NCBI RefSeq assembly: GCF_028641065.1
Contig: NC_073391.1
Location: 23,994,001-24,058,000 of the forward strand
Direction: 5' to 3'
From: Leucoraja erinacea
Taxonomy: Eukaryota
DNA length: 64,000 bases
Positions 25,538 to 64,000 of the stretch are shown piece after piece; positions within the stretch are counted from its first letter, which is position 1, and every line of letters starts with the position of its first letter. The notes below the pieces were generated by a model that made no database searches, was not told the DNA's origin, and was given only the letters and a program-made list of their open reading frames with translations. A program made the translations under genes and the position numbers.

Positions 25538-26574
25538 AGAACCCGAGGTAAGGAACCGAGCGGGAGGCCAAATGAGGCGATCGGACCGAGTGGAAACGAG
25601 AGGTACAGGCGAAACTGGCGGAACAGAACCTTCAATTGGCAAAGTCACAGGGGAGACAGGCACAACAGGTGCAACCGGAACGGCCAGCGGACGACCTCTA
25701 CGCCGGGGTTGAGCCAATACCACCGGGCTTGAGGCGAGACACTGAAATGATTTCCTCCCGACCCCCGACATCCAAGAGAATATTCGCGACACCGGGGTCT
25801 CAACACCCGGAAAGGTCCTTCACAAGTCCGCTACGGCGGAGTCCGGTGCGAGTCTCTGCGGAGTAACACAAATAAACAGTCCTTAAGCTCTGGCGGCAAA
25901 TATACCGGAGCAACCCCATGCCGAGATGTCGGGATAGGAGCCAGGCCACCCACTTTCTCCCAGAGGTTCGCCAACACAGACAGAGCTGTAGGAAGGAAAT
26001 CCCCAGGCACCCACACTGAGAAGCCATACACGAGCTCAGCGGATGACGTGCCCAAAACCGCCTTCGGGGCCGTGCGGATACCCAGCAACATGCAAGGCAA
26101 CTGGTCGACCCAGTCCGGGCCCGTAAGCCGCGCATTGAGCGCCGACTTCAAATGTCGATGGAAGCGCTCCACCAACCCGTTGGCCTGAGGGTGATAGGCG
26201 GTGGTGTGATGCAGCTGCGCCCCATACAGCCCGAGCCGACCACAAAGCCCAAGTAAACTGTGCACCTCAGTCAGTGGAGATGTCCACAGGCACACCACAA
26301 CGAGCAATCCAGTGGGCCGTGAGAGCCCAAGCACAAGACGCGGCGGAGGTGTCAGCATGTGGAACTGCCTCTGGCCACCTTGTGAAGCGATCTACGATGA
26401 TGATTTTCAATGTCTGACATGGGAATACAGGCCCTGGCCCAGGCTGCAACCTGTTTAGGGAGGCCCAGCCAGATAAACTACTCTGCCACCAAAGCAGAAG
26501 TCGCCCAGATGGAAGGATGGGCCAGACCATGAACAGCATCGAAAACACGTGCCGCCAACCCATGGGGATGATAG
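25499..26574 (-). mobile_element. Gypsy integrase remnant (frameshifted)
   Basis: VDRFTRWPEAVP, WIARCGVPVDISTD and HHTTAYHPQANGLVERFHRHLKSAL (rve core) in ORFs 26267-26581 and 25831-26358. Confidence 0.9.
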
Positions 26575-28332: not shown

Positions 28333-29251
28333 TTGAATTGAATTGAATTGAATTGAATTGAATTTCCTTTATTGTCATTCAGACCTTACGGTCTGAACGA
28401 AATTTCGTGCCTGCAGTCATACATACAATGATACAATAATAACAACAATAAACACAAATTAACTTCCACCACAGTGAGTCCTCCAAACACCTCCTCACTG
28501 TGGTGGAGGCAAAAATCTTAGGGTTGCAGTCTCTCCCTCTGCTCCCTCTGCGCTGAGGCGATTCCCCACCGGGCGATGGTACAAACAGTCCCGCAGCTCA
28601 CCGAACCCCGCGAACAGGCCGGTTGAAACACTGCGGCCCGGGGTGGTTGAAGCCGCCGCACCTCCAGTCCAGCACACGCAGCCGCCGGCCCGCGGCTGAA
28701 CCCAGGACTCTGGACACCGCCGCCAGAACGTCGTCCCAGCCACCGGACCAGATCGCCCTCACGTGAGTACCGTTCCACCCTCAGGCTGGGCCACTCCAGT
28801 GAGAGTGCCGTTCCTCCCTCGGGCTGGGCCACTCCGACGGGAGTGCCGTTCCTCCCTCGGGCTGGGCCACTCCAGCGGGCGTGCCGTTCCTCCCTCAGGC
28901 TGGGCCACTCCGACGGGAGTGCCGTTCCTCCCTCAGGCTGGGCCACTCCAGCCCCTCACCATGCTGCTCTCACGGGAGCACCGTTCCATCCCGGGCTGGG
29001 CCGGGAGCGAGCCCAGGACGAGTCCTGTCAGCTGCCTCCAGAGTCCCGAGGTCGCCGGCTCCGCTAGGCCTCAGTGTAGACGGAGGCAAAGAAGGGGGAT
29101 ACGACAAAAAGGTCGTATTCCCCCGAAGGGAGTGACAGCAGCCCCCGTTTCACCCCCCACCCCCCTCCCCACATAAACACATCCTAAAAACCAAAAACAT
29201 AACTAGACAATAACGAAAAAAAACAATACAAAAAAGTAAAAACTGCAGGCG
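28333..29251 (-). mobile_element. GC-rich non-autonomous retroelement with internal 38-bp tandem repeats
   Basis: (AATTC)n tail, 3' stem-loop TTCAGACC-GTAA-GGTCTGAA, T-rich 5' region; homologous to 47625-48420. Confidence 0.75.
28765..28951. repeat. 38-bp minisatellite, ~5 copies
   Basis: Unit GAGTGCCGTTCCTCCCTCGGGCTGGGCCACTCCGACGG. Confidence 0.9.
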
Positions 29252-30130: not shown

Positions 30131-31029
30131 TTAGACTGCACATTAATCTAAGATCTGTATGCCCATTCAGTTGACTGTAACAACATTCCATGGTGCTATT
30201 TGGTAAAGAGCAGAGGAGTTGTCTTGGCTTGCACCACATAAGACATAATTTATCTCCTTGACGCCTGTGGAACCTTGCCATCTTAAAACTGGTTGAGGCG
30301 TTCCCTCTCCATTACAAAGAAATTGCAGTGTAAAAATTAAATAAGTGGCTGATGATATATCTAGAGTGTCATGAGGTGCTATAAAATTGATTTCTTTTCC
30401 TTCTGAAATATGTTGACCTCCCCGACTGCATAGGAAATATGTCTCTGAATGATGTTCTACTCTTTCAGAGTATTGGTGCACAACACAGTGCCTAATAGCA
30501 CCGTTGTGGTGAAAATATCTCTATCCAGTCTAATGCCAGACATTTATTATTATACAGAAAATGTGCTAATATATTTGTTTTGTTTAAGTGAGCACTGCAA
30601 TATATTGTCGATTGTCTAGAATGTATTTAGACTTTGTGTTTTAGTATTTTTATGTAAAATATTTTAAACAATTCAGGACAATATTTATCATACATCATTA
30701 CAAATTCTTCAGTTACACAATATTATTGAATGTATAATTGCATGGGCAACTTCATGAATCTGATGCAATTACAATACAGTACTTTGAAGATTCTTTCTGG
30801 TTTCATAACTGGTCAAGGATAGCCAGGTATTTAAAATTTACTTTATAATTCATGCCTTGATTGCAGATCAAATTAGATGGTAATGATTTATGAGAAATTT
30901 GACTTCAGTATTGGTACATTAGTGGAGGCACTGTGCAAAACTTTATTTACATGTATACCATCTTGTTTCCTGAAGTCATTAACCAGCTCCTTCATCTTGC
31001 TGACAATGAGGGAGGTTATTGTCTTGACA

Positions 31030-31525
31030 TTACTTTACTAGGGGATGAGGTTGTGTATACACCCCAGTCAGCATCAATGGTGCCGGTGGAGATAGTGGAG
31101 AGCATAACTATCACTTTGAAGCTACAGCCAAAAGAAAAACACCAATGCTTCTGCTTCCTCAGAAGACTAATGCTGTTCAGCATCTCTCTAATGACTCTTA
31201 CCTGCTACAGATGTTCCATAGAAGGCATCCTATGGAGATGCACCACAGATTGGTTGGGCACCAATTCTGCTCAAGACGGTAAGAAATTGCTGAAAGCTGT
31301 GGATGCAGCCCTGGTCATCACAAAGAACAGTGCTGCCAGTCCTGCCCCTGCCCCCCCTCCCCCCTCCTCACCCCAATCCCCCAATTCATGCTGCCTCAGG
31401 AAAGTGGGCAATATAATCAAGGACCTTTTATGCACTGGTCATTCCCTCCTCCCCACTTCGTCAGACGGTAAATACAGAAGCCAGAATGTACCACCAGATT
31501 CAGGACCAGTTTCTTCACCGCTGTC
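31030..31525 (+). mobile_element. Degenerate Rex1/Babar LINE fragment
   Basis: CFLRRL, YRCSIEGIL and CLRKVGNIIKD within ORF 30933-31685. Confidence 0.7.
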
Positions 31526-32321
31526 ATCACACTACTGGTGCATTCCCAACTCTCAATCTACCTCACTGCCACTTTCTCGGTGGTGCAACATCACATTCCG
31601 CACTCTGGATAGTCACCACCTGCTGGAACTAGCAACAAAGCTGGTCTTATTAAGCCTAATTGTTTTTTTCAGCTATGTCCAATAACATCCTGCAAGACTG
31701 CAGCTTCATTCTTTAACAGAGATCATTCCAGGCAATAAGTGGCGTGAGAGGGCAACAATCCTGCTGTTAACAAACAAAGCAAACGTGTTAACAACCAGAA
31801 ACATGCAATGGCAATTATGAAATCCCGCTACAACTAAATTGGTAATTACAGCATAATTAGTTGCTAATTAGTGAAAATGATGCAATGAGTTGCATCGTGT
31901 GATCAGCTTCTCATTTGCCTCCATACAGGGTCTGACTCTGCACTTAGCTGAGAATTATGGTTTATTGCAAATAAATGAAGACTTTTCAAAATGAATTTGC
32001 AACAATTATTTTTTATATATGGGATATTAAAAAAAAGATTTTGAAAGCAATGTTAGACATTAAACATACATTGGTAAATTTCAAATATTATAAAATCATT
32101 TACATGGCAGTATATCCTCTTTGTTCCTCTCCAAAAATGCATTGTTATTGATAGTCCAAGTTGACAGTATTTGCTGTAAATGTAAATACTTTAAAGTGGC
32201 CCCCTGTGATGTTTCATGTTTGCTGCCTGGAGTTACAAAGATTTCACAATACAGGAGCAGAAGTTAAGGTTAGGCCAGTTGATTTCCTGGGGCATTGTTC
32301 AATACCAAAGCAAAAATGATA

Positions 32322-33723
32322 GGAATAACCTCTATGAACCATTTCAGTCCGGTTTTCGCCACAATCACAGCACTGAAACAGCCTTGGTAAAAATTACAAA
32401 TGATCTCCTTCTCGCAGCTGACACTGGCCACATCCATCCTGATCCTCCTCGACCTCACAGCAGCCTTTGACACCGTCTCCCACCCAATTCTTTTGGAACG
32501 TCTATCTGCCACCGGCATCAACAACAATGCACGACTTTGGTTCAGGTCCTATCTACATGACAGAAAACAGTTCATCCAGGGAAATAAAGTCACATCCATA
32601 ACTGCCACCGTCCCCCATGGTGTTCCTCAGGGATCGGTGCTGGGGCCACTGCTTTTTATCATCTATATTCAACCTCTTGGCAATATTCTCCGTCATTTTG
32701 GAATCAATTTTTACTGCTACGCCGAAGATACACAACTTTACCTCTCCACAAAACCATACACCTCCCTTCCCCCAACTGCCCTCACCACCTGTCTTCAAGC
32801 TATCAGCAGCTGGATGTCACTCAACCTTCTAAAACTCAATGGAAATAAAACAGAAATCATGCTAATTGGCTCAAAGTCCACACTCTCCAAAACCCACCCG
32901 TTCACCATTTCAGTTGATGGCTCACCCATACCCACCTCCTCCCATGTCAAAAGTCGCGGCGTCATTCTGGACAGTACAATTTCCTTTAGCCCCCACATCA
33001 GCAATATCACACGCTCTGCATACTTTCATCTCCGCAACATCTCCAGACTCCACCCCTCCCTCTCCAAAGACAATACAAAAGTTCTCATTCACGCTCTGGT
33101 CACATCCCACATCGATTACTGCAACGCCCTCCTCACTTACACCTCCAATAAACTTCTTCATCGCCTCCAATGCATTCGGAAATCTGCAGCCCGGATCATC
33201 ACCCGCACCAGATCATCGGACCACATCACACCCATCCTCACTCAGCTCCACTGGCTCCCTGTGCACCACCGGATTAACTACAAGATTTTACTGCTGACCT
33301 TCAAAGCCCTACACCACCTTGCTCCCCAATACCTCTCTGACCTGCTGCTACCATACACTGCTTCCCGGTCACTTCGTTTCTCCTCAGCTGCAATTTTAAC
33401 TGTCCCCACATTTAGACTCAGCACCATGGGTGCCAGAGCCTTCAGCTGCTCTGCCCCACGTCTCTGGAACACTCTCCCACCTCCTATCCGTCACCTGGAC
33501 ACTATCGATCAATTCAAATCACAACTCAAAACACACCTGTTTAGATTAGCATACCCGACATAACTTCCACCATGTTCACCCTGATTTTAATGACTTAAAA
33601 TGTTTTGTGTATTTTTTGTTTTTTGTTTTTAATCAACTAGATTTTAATATTGATAAATGCATTCTTATTTTATGTCCTGTAAGGTGTCCTTGGATGTCCA
33701 GAAAGGCACCAGCAAATAAAATG

Positions 33724-44691: not shown

Positions 44692-45185
44692 GTCAAGTCA
44701 AGTCAAGAGAGTTTATTGTCATGTGTCCCAGATAGGACAATTACATTCTTGCTTGCTGCAGCACCACATAGTATTGTAAGCATTAATACATAACAGTTCA
44801 GTGTGCCTATATAGCATAAACCATATATATACACATAAATATACAGATAAAGTGCAATAGGCTGTTATAGTTCAGAGTTTGTTGGATGGCGAGTTTAATA
44901 GTCTGATGGCTGTGGGGAAGAAGCTGTTCCTGAACTTGGATGTACCAGTATTCAGGCTCCTGTACCTTCTGCCTGATGGCAGCGGAGAGATGAGTGTGTG
45001 GCCAGGATGGTGTGGGTCCTTCATGATGTTGGCAGCCTTTTTAAGGCAGCGACTGCGATAGGTCCCTTCGATGGTGGGGAGGTCAGAGCCGATGATGGAA
45101 TGGGCAGTGTTCACAACTTTCTACAATCTTTTCCACTCCTGGATGCTCAAGTTGCCAAACCAAGCCACGATGCAACCAGTCAGGA
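44692..45185 (-). mobile_element. Rex1/Babar LINE 3' fragment
   Basis: ORF 44872-45114 is nearly identical to 24012-24374; (ACTTG)n tail. Confidence 0.85.
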
Positions 45186-45189
45186 TATT

Positions 45190-47624: not shown

Positions 47625-48420
47625 TAATCTTAGGGCTGCAGTCTCTTCCTTCCTCTTCTCCCTCTGCGCTGAGGCGATACCCCACAGGGCGATGGTACAA
47701 CCAGTCCCGTGGCTCACCGAACCCCGCAAACGGGCCGGCTCAAACACCGCGGCCCGGGGTGGTCGAAGCTGCCGCCCTCCAGTCCAGCGGACGCAGCCGC
47801 TGGCCCGCGGCTGAACCCCGGTCTCAGGTCACCGCCACCAGAACGCCGTCCCAGCCACCGGAGCACTGTTCCAGCCCCGAGCCGGATCGCACTCACGTGA
47901 GTGCCGTTCCTCCCTCGAGCTGGGCCACTCCGACGGGAGCACCGTACCTCCCTCGAGCTGGGCCGCTCCAACGGGAGCGCGGTACCTCCCTCGAGCTGGG
48001 CCTCTCCGATGGGAGCGCCGTACCACCCTCGAGCTGGGCCGCTCCGACGGGAGCGCCATTCCACACTCGAGCTGGGCCGCTCTGACGTGAGCGCCACAGC
48101 CCCTCACGGGAGAGTCTCAGCCCCACGCCAGGCTGCCCTCACGGGAGCGTCACAGCCCCTCACGGGAGCGCCATTCCAGCCCCGAGCCGGACTGCCCTCA
48201 CGGGAGCGAGCTCAGGGCAAGTCCTGACTGGCTCTGCCTCCGGAGCCTCGAGGTCGCCAGCTCCGCCATTAGGCCTCAGCGCAGACGGAGGCAGAGAAGG
48301 GGGATACGACAAAAAAGTCGCATTCCCCCGAAGGGAGAGACAGCAAGCCCCGTTTCAACCCCCCACCCACATAAACACAACCTAAAAACCAAAAACTTAA
48401 CTAGACAAAATGAAAAAAAT
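47625..48420 (-). mobile_element. Second copy of the GC-rich element with 38-bp repeats (tail missing)
   Basis: Aligns with 28515-29220; repeats at 47898-48090. Confidence 0.8.
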
Positions 48421-60234: not shown

Positions 60235-61105
60235 TTTAGGTTTAGGTTTATTATTGCCACGTGTACCGAGGTACTGTGAGGTGCCACGTGGCGGTGGCCT
60301 TCCCGAGGTACCGCACAGTGTAGGCCTTCCCGAGGAGCCTGCCTGGAGGCTCGTAGGTCGGCGGAGCCCACCTGGAAGGCTTGTCAGTCGGCAGGACTTT
60401 GCCTGAACGTTTGTCGGTCAGAGTGACCAGAAACGCGCCTGAAGACTTGTCGGGGCTCGCCTGAAGTGTCATTGATCGATGGGACCAGAAGGCAGCTGGA
60501 GACATTGGGTGCTAGGAGCAAGGGCTGAACCGGGGTATTACCTTCAGCGCCTTCTAGGTCGGCTGCAGGAGGCAACCTCGGGACACTAAAGTGGCCAGGC
60601 GAGGAGAGGAGAGGGACATTGTTTTGCAGGAACATCTCCAGTTCATCGAGCGCACGAGTTGACCAGGCTTTGAATAATGGCGCCTAAAATGACAGCGCCA
60701 GCACGTGTAATATATGCACAAAGAATTTCACTGTGCAGTTACATATGTGACAAATAACACACGATTGAAAAGGTTTGTTTTGCATGCTATCCAATCAGAT
60801 CAGATAACACAATATTAAATACAATCAAGTCAAACTCCTAGATCAAGTAGATCAAAGGGGAAGATCCAGTGGGCAGAATATAATTCTCAGCAATATAGTG
60901 CGCCAGTCCGTGGACAAAGTCCAATGATCGCAAAGGGGTAGAGATGAATCGGACACCACCCTAGCTAATGGTCGGACCATTCAGAAGCCTGATAACAGAA
61001 GAGAGGAATGTGTTCCTGAGTCTCGCAGTACACGCTGACAAGCTTCCATAGCTTCTGCCCGACAGGAGCAGGGAGAACAAGGAAGTACCAGGGTGGAGCA
61101 AGTCT
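60235..61105. mobile_element. Minus-strand Rex1/Babar 3' fragment with a plus-strand GC-rich element (~60280-60765) nested in it
   Basis: tttattattgccacgtgtaccgaggtactgtga resumes at tgaaaaggtttgttttgcatgc; the insert ends ATTTCACTGTG..GTGACAAATAA. Confidence 0.55.
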
Positions 61106-61599
61106 TCCTCTTGATTTCTGTTTCTTGTTTTATTGTATTACCCCCCTCATGTTTTTCTATAAACCTTCGATTTTAGTTCTTGCTTTTAACTCCCTTATTG
61201 TCATTCTAATACTCAAGGCTTTCGTCTTTCAAATACTATTTGTGCTGCATGAAACAGATTATCTTTGTGCACTTCCAGTCATTTTTCTTAAAATCACAAT
61301 TCCAATTTTCAAAAACACTTTAACAGACTATTAAACCCATTACATACTTCCTTGTGACAGTGCTTAATGTAATTGGATTTTATCAGTTGTCTATCTCCAC
61401 CTTTCATTTTTTCTCGCTCCTATAAGAAGTTACTTTTCCAATTTTGACAAGGTATTTAAACTGTTATTTCTCTGCTTTTGCTGAAAAAACAACGTCTTTA
61501 GTGATCTAATTTTTCAAATATGTATCATTTAATTTCTATCTTTGATTTAAAAAAATCCGAAATAAACTGCTTTATAATTTATCATTCATGGAGCTATAG

Positions 61600-63900
61600 T
61601 ATGTGGAGAGTTGGAAATTAAAATCAGGGGTCAAGTTGTACAAAGTTGCAAATCAGATGGCTTGAGACACAAGTTGTTTGAGAAAGGTGACTAACATTAG
61701 CAGAAGCACTGACAATTACCATTTCATTTGAAGGCATGGGAACCCAGTTTCAGACCATGAGATTGGATGGGGGATGCCATGCTAACAGTATGACATCTAC
61801 TGGCACTGGCAAGGGACATGGAAACGGTAAGGGTCATTCTAAAGCTGAGGGTAACTGTGAGTGTTTTAGATGTAGGATATTTTGATATTTTGGCAAATAT
61901 TCATGCTGTTCTGCCAGGGGTCAAATGTGCAGAAAATGTGGGGGAAAAAGACCATTTTGCAAAGAAGTGTTGAACCCTATGCAAACCAAAGAGAGATGAT
62001 GGAAAGACAAATAGATTTGGAGGAAGAAAGGGGCAGAGAGCATCAAGTCCAAATTTACGCCACGTTCATATGAATGTAAACGTGACGAGTGGATTCAGGA
62101 TATGCTTTTGTGAAAACAATAAGCAAAGGTGCCGGTGACTATTGGAGATGTAGAGATAGACATTATAGTAGACCCTGGAAGTGATAGCAATGTTTTTGAT
62201 AGAGCACTGTGGGCAGACTTGAAAATGGAAAGAGATAAATGCATTTCAAGGAAATGTGATAAGAAATTGTATCTGTAAAACTACTCCAAACTGTTGGATG
62301 TTTCAAGGCAGAGGACCAAGCAGGTGATAAGCACAATATATCTGAATGTGTGGTCATTGAGGTGAAAGGAGAGCCATTTGTGAGCCGAGAGACTGCCAAG
62401 GTAGTAGGTGTGCTACACATTGGGTGAGATGTGAGCTCACTGAAGTCATATACAGACTCAAATGAGGAGTTTGCCAGTGTTTGAAGGCATTGGGAAATTG
62501 CTTGATCGGCAAGTAAAACTCAAGATAGACCAAGATGTTAAGCAAGTAGTACAACCAATGAGACAAACTCCATTTGGATTAAGGGCGAATGAGCCAGATG
62601 GAGTGAAAAATCCAAAAAGACCAAGAAGCTGAGGGAGAGAAATACATGGACAAAGATGCATTTGTCACTTCTGCTTTTAAAAAGTGCGTGGAAAATTATA
62701 AATTTTAAAAAGAAGCTCCAGGAAAGAGCAGGAAAGAAAGAGCAAGAATGCAGAGAAGCAGAGCTGGAGACTTCTTTGGATGTAACTAAACAGAAAGACC
62801 TCAATGGTTTCTACCGATATTTTGTGAATTAACAAGTGGGTGAAGAGGTTATTCCAGGGTGCAGCATGCATGCAACCAAAGGCATTAAAGAAGAATTTGA
62901 TGATAATGACTGTAAAATTCCCAATGGTTTATCAGGGAACAAACCTGACCAATATCTAAATGCTTACAGTGACTTTGACACTGACAGCAATGATGAAACT
63001 TCAGCTGAACATGGCCAAAAGCAAATGTTTTCCATAACAAGATATTATGACGACAATTCAGACATAAATGGAGACAAAGCAAGAAGGTGCCAATACAGAA
63101 GACATGTTGAATCTTCCAGCAAGGAAAAGTCATCATCAACATGTGAGCCATGCGACCAGAGAGAGTGGAAGGCAAGAGTTATTCCAAAACTCATCTGGAT
63201 GCATAGAAAAGCAACAGAACTGGGGAAAATTCAAACCATAAGGAGCACAAATGTGCAAAGGAAAAGCACTAAGAAAAATATCATTCAAGAAAGGAAAAGG
63301 ACCGAGACAGATATTGGGGCAACGAAGAGAGAAAACGTAAGGAGATGAAATTGAAAGACCACATCAGTGGAAGGGTCAAGAGATCATAAGATTACAGAGA
63401 AAGGCATAAGGATAGAGATGAGCAAGAAGTGAGAGATCATGAAACAGAAAATAGAGGGGTATCAAAGCTCTTTGCAGACAGGAGACGAGGTGCCAAATCA
63501 TCTGATGTCACGCCAGGAGATGAGGTGCAGGTGAGAGGAGAAAGAATGGACACACTCTTCCTTTCCATAACCATACACTGATTTCCAGACAAGGAAATAA
63601 GGTGACACTCCAGTCAGCAGAAGGAGTCACATATGACAGAAACACAGCATATATGGAAAAGTCCAGCGATGCTGCAGACTGATGTTGAGACAATGAGGGA
63701 TCAGACCTGAGACTACCAACTTGATGAGCCAGGAATGCACCGGCTTGAGGTGGAGACTATACAAAATCAGAATTGAGATGATGAACTGGTGGAGCAGCAC
63801 GTGCCAGATCTGAATCCAGTATCAGAGTAGACAGCGGCAGAGGCCAGACCGAAGCATCAGAGAGGACCACCCAAGTGATACAAGGATTATGTGATGCTTT
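61600..63900 (+). mobile_element. Degenerate Gypsy internal region (gag, protease, start of RT, end of integrase)
   Basis: CRKCG(E)KDHFAKKC zinc knuckle at ~61928 (one frameshift), IIVDPGSDSNV protease motif at ~62160, QPMRQTPFGLR at ~62552, and RDEQEVRD..VTPGDEV..GVTYDRN..KDYV after 63415. Confidence 0.8.
62580..63420 (+). pseudogene. NSRP1: Processed NSRP1 (CCDC55) fragment inside the Gypsy element
   Basis: KIQKDQEAEGEKYMDKDAFVTSAFKK / KLQERA..LETSLDVTKQKDLNGFYRYFVN*QVGEEVIPGCS matches remembered NSRP1 (DKEAFVTSAYKKKLQERAEEE..LDVTKQKDLSGFYRHLLNQAVGEEEVPKCS); in-frame stops and frameshifts. Confidence 0.85.
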
Positions 63901-64000
63901 CACATGTGGAGGTGATGCATTATCAATGGAATGAACACCATATCCAGAATGGTGTTGGAATGTTCATTTCACAATGTGATGATGGGGAAATCTTTTTTGT

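What the first reader, a model, noticed from the sequence alone, without database searches (positions are those of the whole stretch)
62580..63420. Host NSRP1 mRNA fragment replaces the RT-integrase core of a Gypsy element
Seen: Gypsy gag, protease and the start of RT (..PFGLR) switch at ~62580 to NSRP1-like coding sequence on the same strand, then return at ~63415 to the integrase C-terminus. There is no poly(A) or TSD at the junctions, and most of pol is missing. The NSRP1 part appears to cross exon junctions as I recall them (around LE/LDV and after CS..) without introns. Established: LTR elements can capture co-packaged mRNAs by double template switching at microhomologies. Inference: LTR-mediated retroduplication of a splicing-regulator gene, now decayed; AAGG and AGAGAT are candidate switch points.
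Basis: partly seen in the sequence, partly recalled or inferred. Interest (0 to 1): 0.75.

Follow-up and report, generated by a model that had tools for sequence, protein, structure and literature searches.

The report
Gypsy fossil carrying spliced NSRP1 fragment
A decayed jumping gene (a Gypsy retrotransposon) holds an intron-free piece of the host splicing gene NSRP1 where its own copying enzymes should be, likely picked up when its reverse transcriptase slipped onto the host message and back; it is an old, apparently single-copy and apparently silent example of a known way of copying genes.

Summary
Observation confirmed. The same Gypsy gag-pol proteins match 61608-62584 and 63417-63896 in order; about 722 codons (RT, RNase H, integrase core) are missing and about 840 nt of NSRP1 coding sequence, same strand, cut at both ends, lie in their place. 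Two introns are lost: the parental genomic piece in two organisms stops at 62773 and 62882 while parental mRNA reads run through. No poly(A), no TSD above chance; short in-register similarity at both junctions (62583-62591, 63420-63426). Both junctions and the 5' flank are shared by three organisms (copies 2.3% and about 5% apart), depth is single-copy, and 0 of 698 laid RNA reads were 95% or more alike. Best reading (0.8): LTR-mediated retrocopy by double template switch, as in Tan et al. 2016; main rival, cDNA-patched break repair. No LTR or element TSD could be shown: the 5' end is lost, the 3' end lies past the window. A second intronless NSRP1 piece exists elsewhere. The scan noted the same kind of capture before on other DNA (RBM25, SUDS3), not NSRP1. 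New member of a known kind; interest 0.3.

The parts
61588..62000 (+). Gypsy gag, C-terminal part with zinc knuckle; decayed; 5' LTR and gag N-terminus absent
   Evidence: tblastn P0125 143-170 and P0126 138-164 at 61608-61691; family contigs join at 61608/61621, depth upstream single-copy; start near 61588 read by eye table 7; gag 1-140 profile finds nothing in the window
62123..62440 (+). Gypsy aspartyl protease region, frameshifted
   Evidence: Pfam Asp_protease_2 E 5.9e-5; P0127 91% over 47 aa; second-frame profile hit 62272-62475
62477..62583 (+). Start of the Gypsy RT region, ending at ..PFGLR
   Evidence: P0126 to aa 475 at 62584; 4 family contigs of X1 leave the window at 62583
62583..62591 (+). 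Left switch zone (Gypsy to NSRP1)
   Evidence: By eye from the loose-end cells: host mRNA matches 62591-62599 at 8 of 9 with an 8-nt gap after it; in that register family and host agree at 7 of 9 positions 62583-62591; chance about 0.012; register rests on the assumed gap
62591..63426 (+). Intronless NSRP1 mRNA fragment, sense, cut at 5' and 3' ends, pseudogenised (4 stops in the three main frame segments, frameshifts)
   Evidence: N-terminal 1-112 and C-terminal 530-566 profiles find nothing
62678..62705 (+). 28-nt insertion with a 7-nt direct repeat, frameshifting the NSRP1 part
   Evidence: FVT-to-DVT spacing 109 nt against 81 in 124 of 124 proteins; repeat 62678-62684 = 62706-62712; RNA loose end at 62706
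62770..62773 (+). Lost intron 1 (exon-exon junction, likely phase 1)
   Evidence: parental genomic piece begins at 62773 in X1 and X6; 138 mRNA reads cover 62770
62882..62883 (+). Lost intron 2 (exon-exon junction, likely phase 2)
   Evidence: parental genomic piece ends at 62882 in X1 and X6; mRNA depth 116 across bin 62846-62942; the only variable spacing among four tested in 124 proteins falls here
63420..63426 (+). Right switch zone (NSRP1 back to Gypsy)
   Evidence: host mRNA matches 63413-63426 at 13 of 14 (by eye); Gypsy protein alignments start at 63417-63423 in 9 of 15 long proteins; family contig depth starts about 63419-63424 (rough); chance of 7 nt with one mismatch 0.011
63420..63896 (+). 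Gypsy integrase C-terminal region to the end of the ORF, decayed
   Evidence: tblastn P0126 858-1063, P0125 1196-1283, P0231 1222-1304; profile hits 63420-63551 and 63566-63679
63897..64000 (+). Gypsy 3' untranslated part; 3' LTR presumably beyond the window end
   Evidence: family depth highest in the last bin (566, 1472, 228); no second copy of 63850-64000 in the window

Best explanation
This is a decayed Gypsy retrotransposon in which about 840 bases of spliced NSRP1 coding sequence stand in place of about 2.2 kb of pol, likely made when the element's reverse transcriptase switched from its own RNA to a co-packaged NSRP1 mRNA and back at short look-alike stretches. Shown: the two flanks are one family in the right order; the insert is sense, intronless at two junctions and cut at both ends; no poly(A) or TSD; the locus is shared by three organisms, single-copy by depth, and broken by stops and frameshifts. 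Inferred: co-packaging in a Gypsy particle; during minus-strand synthesis a jump from the integrase C-terminal region (63420-63426) onto the purine-rich RE/RD-coding part of the mRNA, copying towards its 5' end across two exon junctions, and a jump back at the start of RT (62583-62591); integration with two LTRs using enzymes supplied in the particle; later loss of the 5' LTR and gag start before the three organisms split. It is now most likely a neutral processed pseudogene.
For: Collinear flanks and 722 missing codons. Family copies that join left- and right-flank sequence in one contig: 62210 to 63660 in X6 and X14, 62038 to 63613 in X14, 61873 to 63913 in X1. Intron loss at two places (indirect support). 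In-register similarity at both junctions, each about 1 in 90 by chance in a window-based null. Replacement rather than insertion, double truncation, no L1 hallmarks and sense orientation match the pattern in Tan et al. 2016 (PMC5131818). Junctions present in X1, X6, X14 contigs.
Against: No LTR and no element TSD were seen: 5' end missing, 3' end outside the window, so integration as a two-LTR chimera is not shown. The left similarity depends on an assumed 8-nt gap, and the window itself matches neither parent well at 62584-62590. Family letters at the right junction were not displayed (24 of 442 loose-end rows shown), so that overlap rests on protein alignments and a rough depth estimate. Both nulls use decayed window sequence and junctions chosen after the fact. 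Left and right scores of 15 long Gypsy proteins did not correlate (rho 0.17, p 0.55; 4 of 15 had no right-flank hit). Internal pol deletions are common in this family, so loss of pol need not be the same event as the capture.
Confidence: 0.8

Rival explanations
1. A double-strand break inside an already integrated Gypsy copy was patched with NSRP1 cDNA by microhomology, with about 2.2 kb of pol lost in the repair (RT-product-mediated break repair).
For: Ono et al. 2015 (PMC4516963) report spliced, doubly truncated mRNA inserts without poly(A) and with short microhomology at breaks in mouse zygotes: the same junction marks. Single-copy depth and absence of LTRs fit equally well.
Against: It needs a chance hit inside a Gypsy pol, sense orientation and a 2.2-kb loss together. 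Replacement of internal ORFs is the rule in LTR-mediated cases, and the scan's notes on RBM25 and SUDS3 (unchecked) describe the same layout more than once.
Confidence: 0.12
2. An ordinary LINE-made processed pseudogene landed in the Gypsy copy, and later deletions removed its poly(A), its 3' third, the TSD and the pol core.
For: A 390-aa open RT frame lies in the window; a second intronless NSRP1 piece with an abrupt 5' end exists in X1 and X6; the VGP preprint credits non-mammalian retrocopies to CR1/Tx1 LINEs. A 6-nt direct repeat sits at 62589 and 63418.
Against: No poly(A); conserved NSRP1 C-terminus absent; the 6-nt repeat is at chance level (1560 of 3000) and its letters are largely explained by the host mRNA; the right junction overlaps both parents in register.
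Confidence: 0.06
3. The join is an assembly chimera, or the NSRP1 part is a genomic single-exon piece moved as DNA.
For: The locus is at the window's edge and repeat-rich; run X1 could be the source of the assembly.
Against: Contigs of two other organisms span the junctions (X6 both in one contig, 38 differences; X14 one each); the fragment crosses two positions where the parental genomic piece ends.
Confidence: 0.02

Closest known systems
LTR-mediated retrocopies of metazoans (Tan et al. 2016, Genome Res, PMC5131818; read: abstract, parts 1-3 of 8 of the text, 12 passages)
   Same: Partial mRNA replacing internal ORFs of an LTR element; 5' and 3' truncation; no poly(A) or TSD; microsimilarity at switch points (25 of 29 fly junctions, median 6 bp); found in fly, mosquito, zebrafish (5 of 7), chicken (4 of 10), mouse and human.
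   Different: Their cases are young, often transcribed with the element and sometimes re-transposed. This one is old (about 16% from the parent in the conserved part), single-copy by depth, lacks its 5' LTR, and gave no matching read in one RNA library. NSRP1 and this host were not among the passages read; their supplementary tables were not opened.
RT-product-mediated double-strand-break repair (Ono et al. 2015, Sci Rep, PMC4516963; read: abstract and 12 passages)
   Same: Spliced, doubly truncated mRNA piece, no poly(A), short microhomologies.
   Different: Target is any break, either orientation; no link to an LTR element's internal region; no replacement of pol expected.
LINE (L1, CR1, Tx1) processed pseudogenes (described in PMC5131818 and in bioRxiv 10.64898/2026.06.26.734816, 10 passages read)
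   Same: Intronless copy of a host mRNA, decayed.
   Different: These keep the 3' end with poly(A) and TSDs; here the 3' end is cut inside the coding sequence and neither mark is present.
HERV-K capture of FAM8A1, maize Bs1 (as cited in PMC5131818; originals not read)
   Same: Host mRNA pieces inside an LTR element, ending as a pseudogene.
   Different: Other element classes and hosts; Bs1 carries three genes.

Membership tests
Ty3/Gypsy LTR retrotransposon | gag-PR-RT-RH-IN order in one lineage of polyproteins | tested here: met
   Best relatives P0125, P0141, P0198 have RVT_1, RNase H, Integrase_H2C2, rve in that order; window parts align in order
Ty3/Gypsy LTR retrotransposon | Two LTRs, PBS, PPT, TSD | tested here: inconclusive
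   No 5' LTR in 61100-61584 (single-copy depth) and no repeat of the 3' end in the window; 3' end lies past base 64000
LTR-mediated retrocopy | Insert derives from spliced mRNA (introns lost) | tested here: met
   Parental genomic piece 62773-62882 in X1 and X6; mRNA reads cross both ends
LTR-mediated retrocopy | Insert replaces part of the internal ORFs; flanks discontinuous and of one family | tested here: met
   722 codons of P0125 missing; family contigs join both flanks; score correlation over 15 proteins not significant
LTR-mediated retrocopy | Microsimilarity at the switch points | tested here: met
   Right 6 of 7 at 63420-63426, left 7 of 9 at 62583-62591, read by eye; null about 0.011 each; left depends on an assumed gap, right on protein-level family evidence
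LTR-mediated retrocopy | No poly(A), no TSD around the insert, both ends truncated | tested here: met
   no A-run of 6 or more; 6-nt repeat at chance level; NSRP1 1-112 and 530-566 absent
LTR-mediated retrocopy | Integrated as a unit with both LTRs | not testable with these tools
   No whole genome held; window ends at 64000; 5' end lost in all three organisms
LTR-mediated retrocopy | Co-transcription or further transposition of the chimera (common, not required) | tested here: not met
   0 of 698 laid reads 95% or more alike in one library, 5% of the run read; depth over the insert equals flank depth in X1 (23.2 vs 20.4) and X6 (49.9 vs 53.2)
LINE-type processed pseudogene | Poly(A) tail and intact 3' end | tested here: not met
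LINE-type processed pseudogene | TSD with continuous target sequence | tested here: not met
   target discontinuous by about 2.2 kb; repeat at chance level

The most novel reading that the evidence does not exclude
The capture is not a one-off: this Gypsy lineage has a purine-rich landing site in the integrase C-terminal codons that resembles RE/RD-coding sequence, so it repeatedly captures mRNAs of mixed-charge nuclear proteins (NSRP1 here; RBM25 and SUDS3 in the scan's unchecked notes), and the second intronless NSRP1 piece is a sibling of the chimera. Gypsy, not LINEs, would then be a main and sequence-biased source of retrocopies in this vertebrate lineage. For: the block starting at 63427 is in the top 2.4-2.8% of 1388 Gypsy blocks for likeness to the insert. 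Against: it is not the best block, the left junction ranks mid-field (0.38-0.47), and the family deletions listed re-enter elsewhere (63613, 63660, 63913).
Probability: 0.15. Interest if true: 0.6.

Novelty: new member of a known kind. Interest (0 to 1): 0.3.

Why it matters
It is a clean, old fossil of LTR-mediated gene copying with both junctions, two lost introns and cross-species orthology still readable, where Tan et al. found no LTR remnants beside 96 old fly retrogenes. A recent survey credits non-mammalian retrocopies to LINEs; cases like this suggest some are Gypsy-made, which can be counted. The locus itself shows no sign of function, so its value is as one data point for that count and as a presence/absence marker among the related organisms.

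Tried and rejected
No whole genome is held, so parental gene, empty site and 3' LTR could not be read directly. Cluster membership of the NSRP1 hits could not be looked up. No cartilaginous-fish NSRP1 was named among the 7 and 120 proteins listed (many unnamed), so tetrapod proteins served as the protein reference. A homolog search with the 48-aa right flank found nothing (weak evidence). No RNA holder listed in the run index; not used as evidence. The 6-nt repeat at 62589/63418 was rejected as a TSD. The rank correlation of left- and right-flank scores was uninformative. Paper searches for NSRP1 exon coordinates gave none (PMC8633036 not held); the human exon lengths that agree with the 112-nt exon (109 nt, phase 1 to 2) are recalled, not from a call. 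Searches for Gypsy-made retrocopies in cartilaginous fish returned 0 papers holding all terms and nothing on point among 15 of 28 listed; NSRP1 does not occur in the VGP preprint's main text (its supplements are closed and may list it). The scan's own notes held no look-alike sequence and nothing from this genome. A general re-entry hot spot at 63420 got only weak support.

Full report
Verdict. The mechanism is known (LTR-mediated retroposition), and this copy is old, broken and apparently inert. Interest 0.3; new member of a known kind.

The Gypsy part. A search with the read-through frame 61859-62587 returned 253 proteins at E up to 0.001, 150 listed. The best long ones are gag-pol polyproteins with RT, RNase H, integrase zinc finger and integrase core in Gypsy order (P0125, P0141, P0198). 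P0126 aligns at 61608-62584 (aa 138-475, ending on PFGLR) and again at 63417-63896 (aa 858-1063); P0125 at 61608 onward (aa 143-473) and from 63420 (aa 1196-1283). P0126 itself lacks RNase H, so P0125 gives the size of the gap: 722 codons, 2166 nt. A profile of that pol core finds nothing near the locus, only an unrelated integrase remnant at 26017-26434 on the other strand. That both flanks are one family is shown at DNA level by other copies whose contigs join left-flank to right-flank sequence (62210 to 63660 in X6 and X14; 62038 to 63613 in X14; 61873 to 63913 in X1, 15 of 59 joints shown plus table 5c). A protein-score correlation over 15 long proteins was not significant (rho 0.17, p 0.55), although the three best right-flank matches, P0126, P0125 and P0231, rank 3, 2 and 4 on the left. 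The element is cut at its 5' end: family depth starts in bin 61585-61681, 61100-61584 is single-copy, and a gag 1-140 profile finds nothing in the window. The 3' end runs off the window. So no LTR, PBS or element TSD is shown.

The NSRP1 part. Pfam NSRP1_N scores above cut-off (E 3.2e-7); all 7 homologs found are NSRP1-family proteins; tblastn places them at 62595-62684 and 62704-63138. Laid at 80% likeness, 698 reads of RNA run X24 map, 693 under 90% alike, 5 at 90-95%, none at 95% or more; they tile 62600-63403 and are the parental mRNA (4 of 24 listed runs were laid, about 5% of X24 read). Profiles of NSRP1 residues 1-112 and 530-566 find nothing, so the copy is cut at both ends. It lacks the C-terminal region that holds the human nuclear localisation signal and part of the coiled coil needed for splicing activity (PMC3105421, abstract and 12 passages). 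It has 4 stops in the three main frame segments, a 28-nt frameshifting insertion with a 7-nt direct repeat and further indels. In 62749-62876, 15 parental differences are listed (40 of 675 rows shown) and 5 more are visible in a host loose-end cell, so at least 20 of 128 positions differ, about 16%.

Intron loss. In DNA runs X1 and X6, contigs carrying the mRNA's letters form a piece whose ends, computed from the from_end column, are 62773 and 62882 in both organisms. The mRNA reads run through both points (138 reads at 62770; mean depth 116 over 62846-62942). The aligner can cross the double mismatch at 62770/62772, since an X14 contig does. The simplest reading is a parental exon of about 112 nt, phase 1 to phase 2 (for phases), with an intron on each side that the window lacks. 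Among 124 NSRP1 proteins three spacings are fixed (124, 124 and 123 of 124) and the fourth, right at the second junction, varies (1, 3, 5, 8 residues), as expected at a sliding splice site (indirect). A 109-nt human exon with the same phases is recalled, not checked; papers searched gave no exon coordinates. Such a copy is seen independently: X1 record 8 and X6 record 23 align at 62845-63031/63038, cross 62882, lack two letters that mRNA and parental exon share, and have 174-177 unaligned bases on their left.

Junctions. No A-run of 6 or more lies in 62560-63500; the longest direct repeat between the junction zones is 6 nt, which 1560 of 3000 random pairs reach. Right junction: the host mRNA's loose end at 63403 re-matches the window at 63413-63426 (13 of 14, by eye), while Gypsy protein alignments start at 63417-63423 in 9 of 15 long proteins and family contig depth starts at roughly 63419-63424. 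The overlap is 63420-63426, 6 of 7 alike to the host, and the likeness continues with two 3-nt gaps to about 63444. Left junction: family contigs leave the window at 62583 (4 contigs of X1); the host mRNA matches 62591-62599 at 8 of 9 if 8 nt are missing after it; in that register family and host agree at 7 of 9 positions over 62583-62591, though the window itself has decayed there. A null from random pairs of window Gypsy and window NSRP1 positions gives 0.011 for 7 nt with one mismatch and 0.012 for 9 nt with two (19169 draws); the junctions were placed after the fact, so these are indicative.

Reality, age, copy number, expression. One X1 contig spans 61941-63941 (10 differences), one X6 contig 62306-63941 (38, 2.3%), and X14 contigs span the left (61924-62724, 43, 5.4%) and right (63287-63941, 31, 4.7%) junctions; the unique 5' flank and the 5' truncation are shared too. 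X1 may be the assembly's own source; X6 and X14 carry other organism labels and other studies. So the capture and the 5' loss predate the split of three organisms, and the distance to the parent is about three times the deepest split (inference). Depth over the insert equals flank depth (23.2 vs 20.4; 49.9 vs 53.2), against several-fold to over 25-fold more on the Gypsy parts; the tool warns that summed depth is no copy number, so 'single-copy' is an inference. No read matching this copy was found in one oligo-dT library; germline, embryo and small RNA are untested. The host is a vertebrate; its repeats recall cartilaginous fishes (from memory, not tested). Of 122 ORFs of 80 aa or more outside the locus, 3 hit Pfam, none a clear host exon.

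Mechanism. Best reading (0.8): an NSRP1 mRNA was packaged in a Gypsy particle; reverse transcriptase left the element RNA in the integrase C-terminal codons, copied about 810 nt of spliced mRNA, returned at the start of RT, and the product integrated as a pol-less element, later losing its 5' end. Anatomy, splicing, orthology and decay are shown; packaging, switching and integration as a unit are inferred from Tan et al. 2016 (PMC5131818), whose cases show replacement of internal ORFs, double truncation, no L1 marks and median 6-bp microsimilarity. Rival (0.12): cDNA-patched break repair in a resident copy, which leaves the same junction marks (PMC4516963). Rival (0.06): LINE retrocopy plus later deletions. 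Artefact or genomic single exon (0.02) is contradicted.

Novelty. [quoted passage not shown] I found no paper on this locus or on Gypsy-made retrocopies in cartilaginous fish (open-access library only; supplements not read). The VGP preprint counts 14,081 retrocopies in cartilaginous fishes, credits CR1/Tx1 LINEs for non-mammalian retroduplication, names SUDS3 among top parents and does not mention NSRP1 in its main text. The scan's notes describe RBM25 and SUDS3 captures by Gypsy elements in other genomes, said to have multiplied (unchecked); this copy apparently did not. The boldest open reading is a biased landing site that favours RE/RD-coding mRNAs (probability 0.15, interest 0.6): the block at 63427 is in the top 2.4-2.8% of 1388 for likeness to the insert, but it is not the best block, the left junction is unremarkable, and listed family deletions re-enter elsewhere.

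Noticed in passing
X1 record 8 and X6 record 23 (align to window 62845-63038); X14 contig aligning to 62741-62816: A second intronless NSRP1 piece elsewhere in these genomes, at single-copy depth, with an abrupt left end; sibling chimera or independent processed pseudogene, unresolved.
   Followed up: partly
joints: 62210 to 63660 (X6, X14), 62038 to 63613 (X14), 61873 to 63913 (X1): Other copies of the same Gypsy family carry large internal deletions with different breakpoints; one is shared by two organisms.
   Followed up: partly
window 62678-62712: 28-nt insertion flanked by a 7-nt direct repeat inside the NSRP1 part; gap counts suggest X6 shares it.
   Followed up: partly
window 63544: A 9-nt stretch present in contigs of X1, X6 and X14 is missing from the window: a deletion private to this haplotype.
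   Followed up: no
window 25978-26434, minus strand: Integrase-core remnant of another, more distant LTR element.
   Followed up: no
window 32391-33560, plus strand: 390-aa open frame with RVT_1 (E 3.4e-22), with a 260-aa open frame upstream at 30903-31682; probably a fairly young LINE.
   Followed up: no
window 23889-24371: Pfam ALKBH8_N hit (E 7.3e-10) overlapping a 315-nt inverted repeat whose other arm is at 44872-45186; recalled as a LINE-derived profile rather than a host exon.
   Followed up: no
window 28533-29163 and 47649-48368: Two copies of a GC-rich repeat element, each with an internal 38-bp tandem array.
   Followed up: no
window 61585-62554: Low-depth RNA reads under 90% alike show that other members of this Gypsy family are weakly transcribed in run X24.
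   Followed up: no
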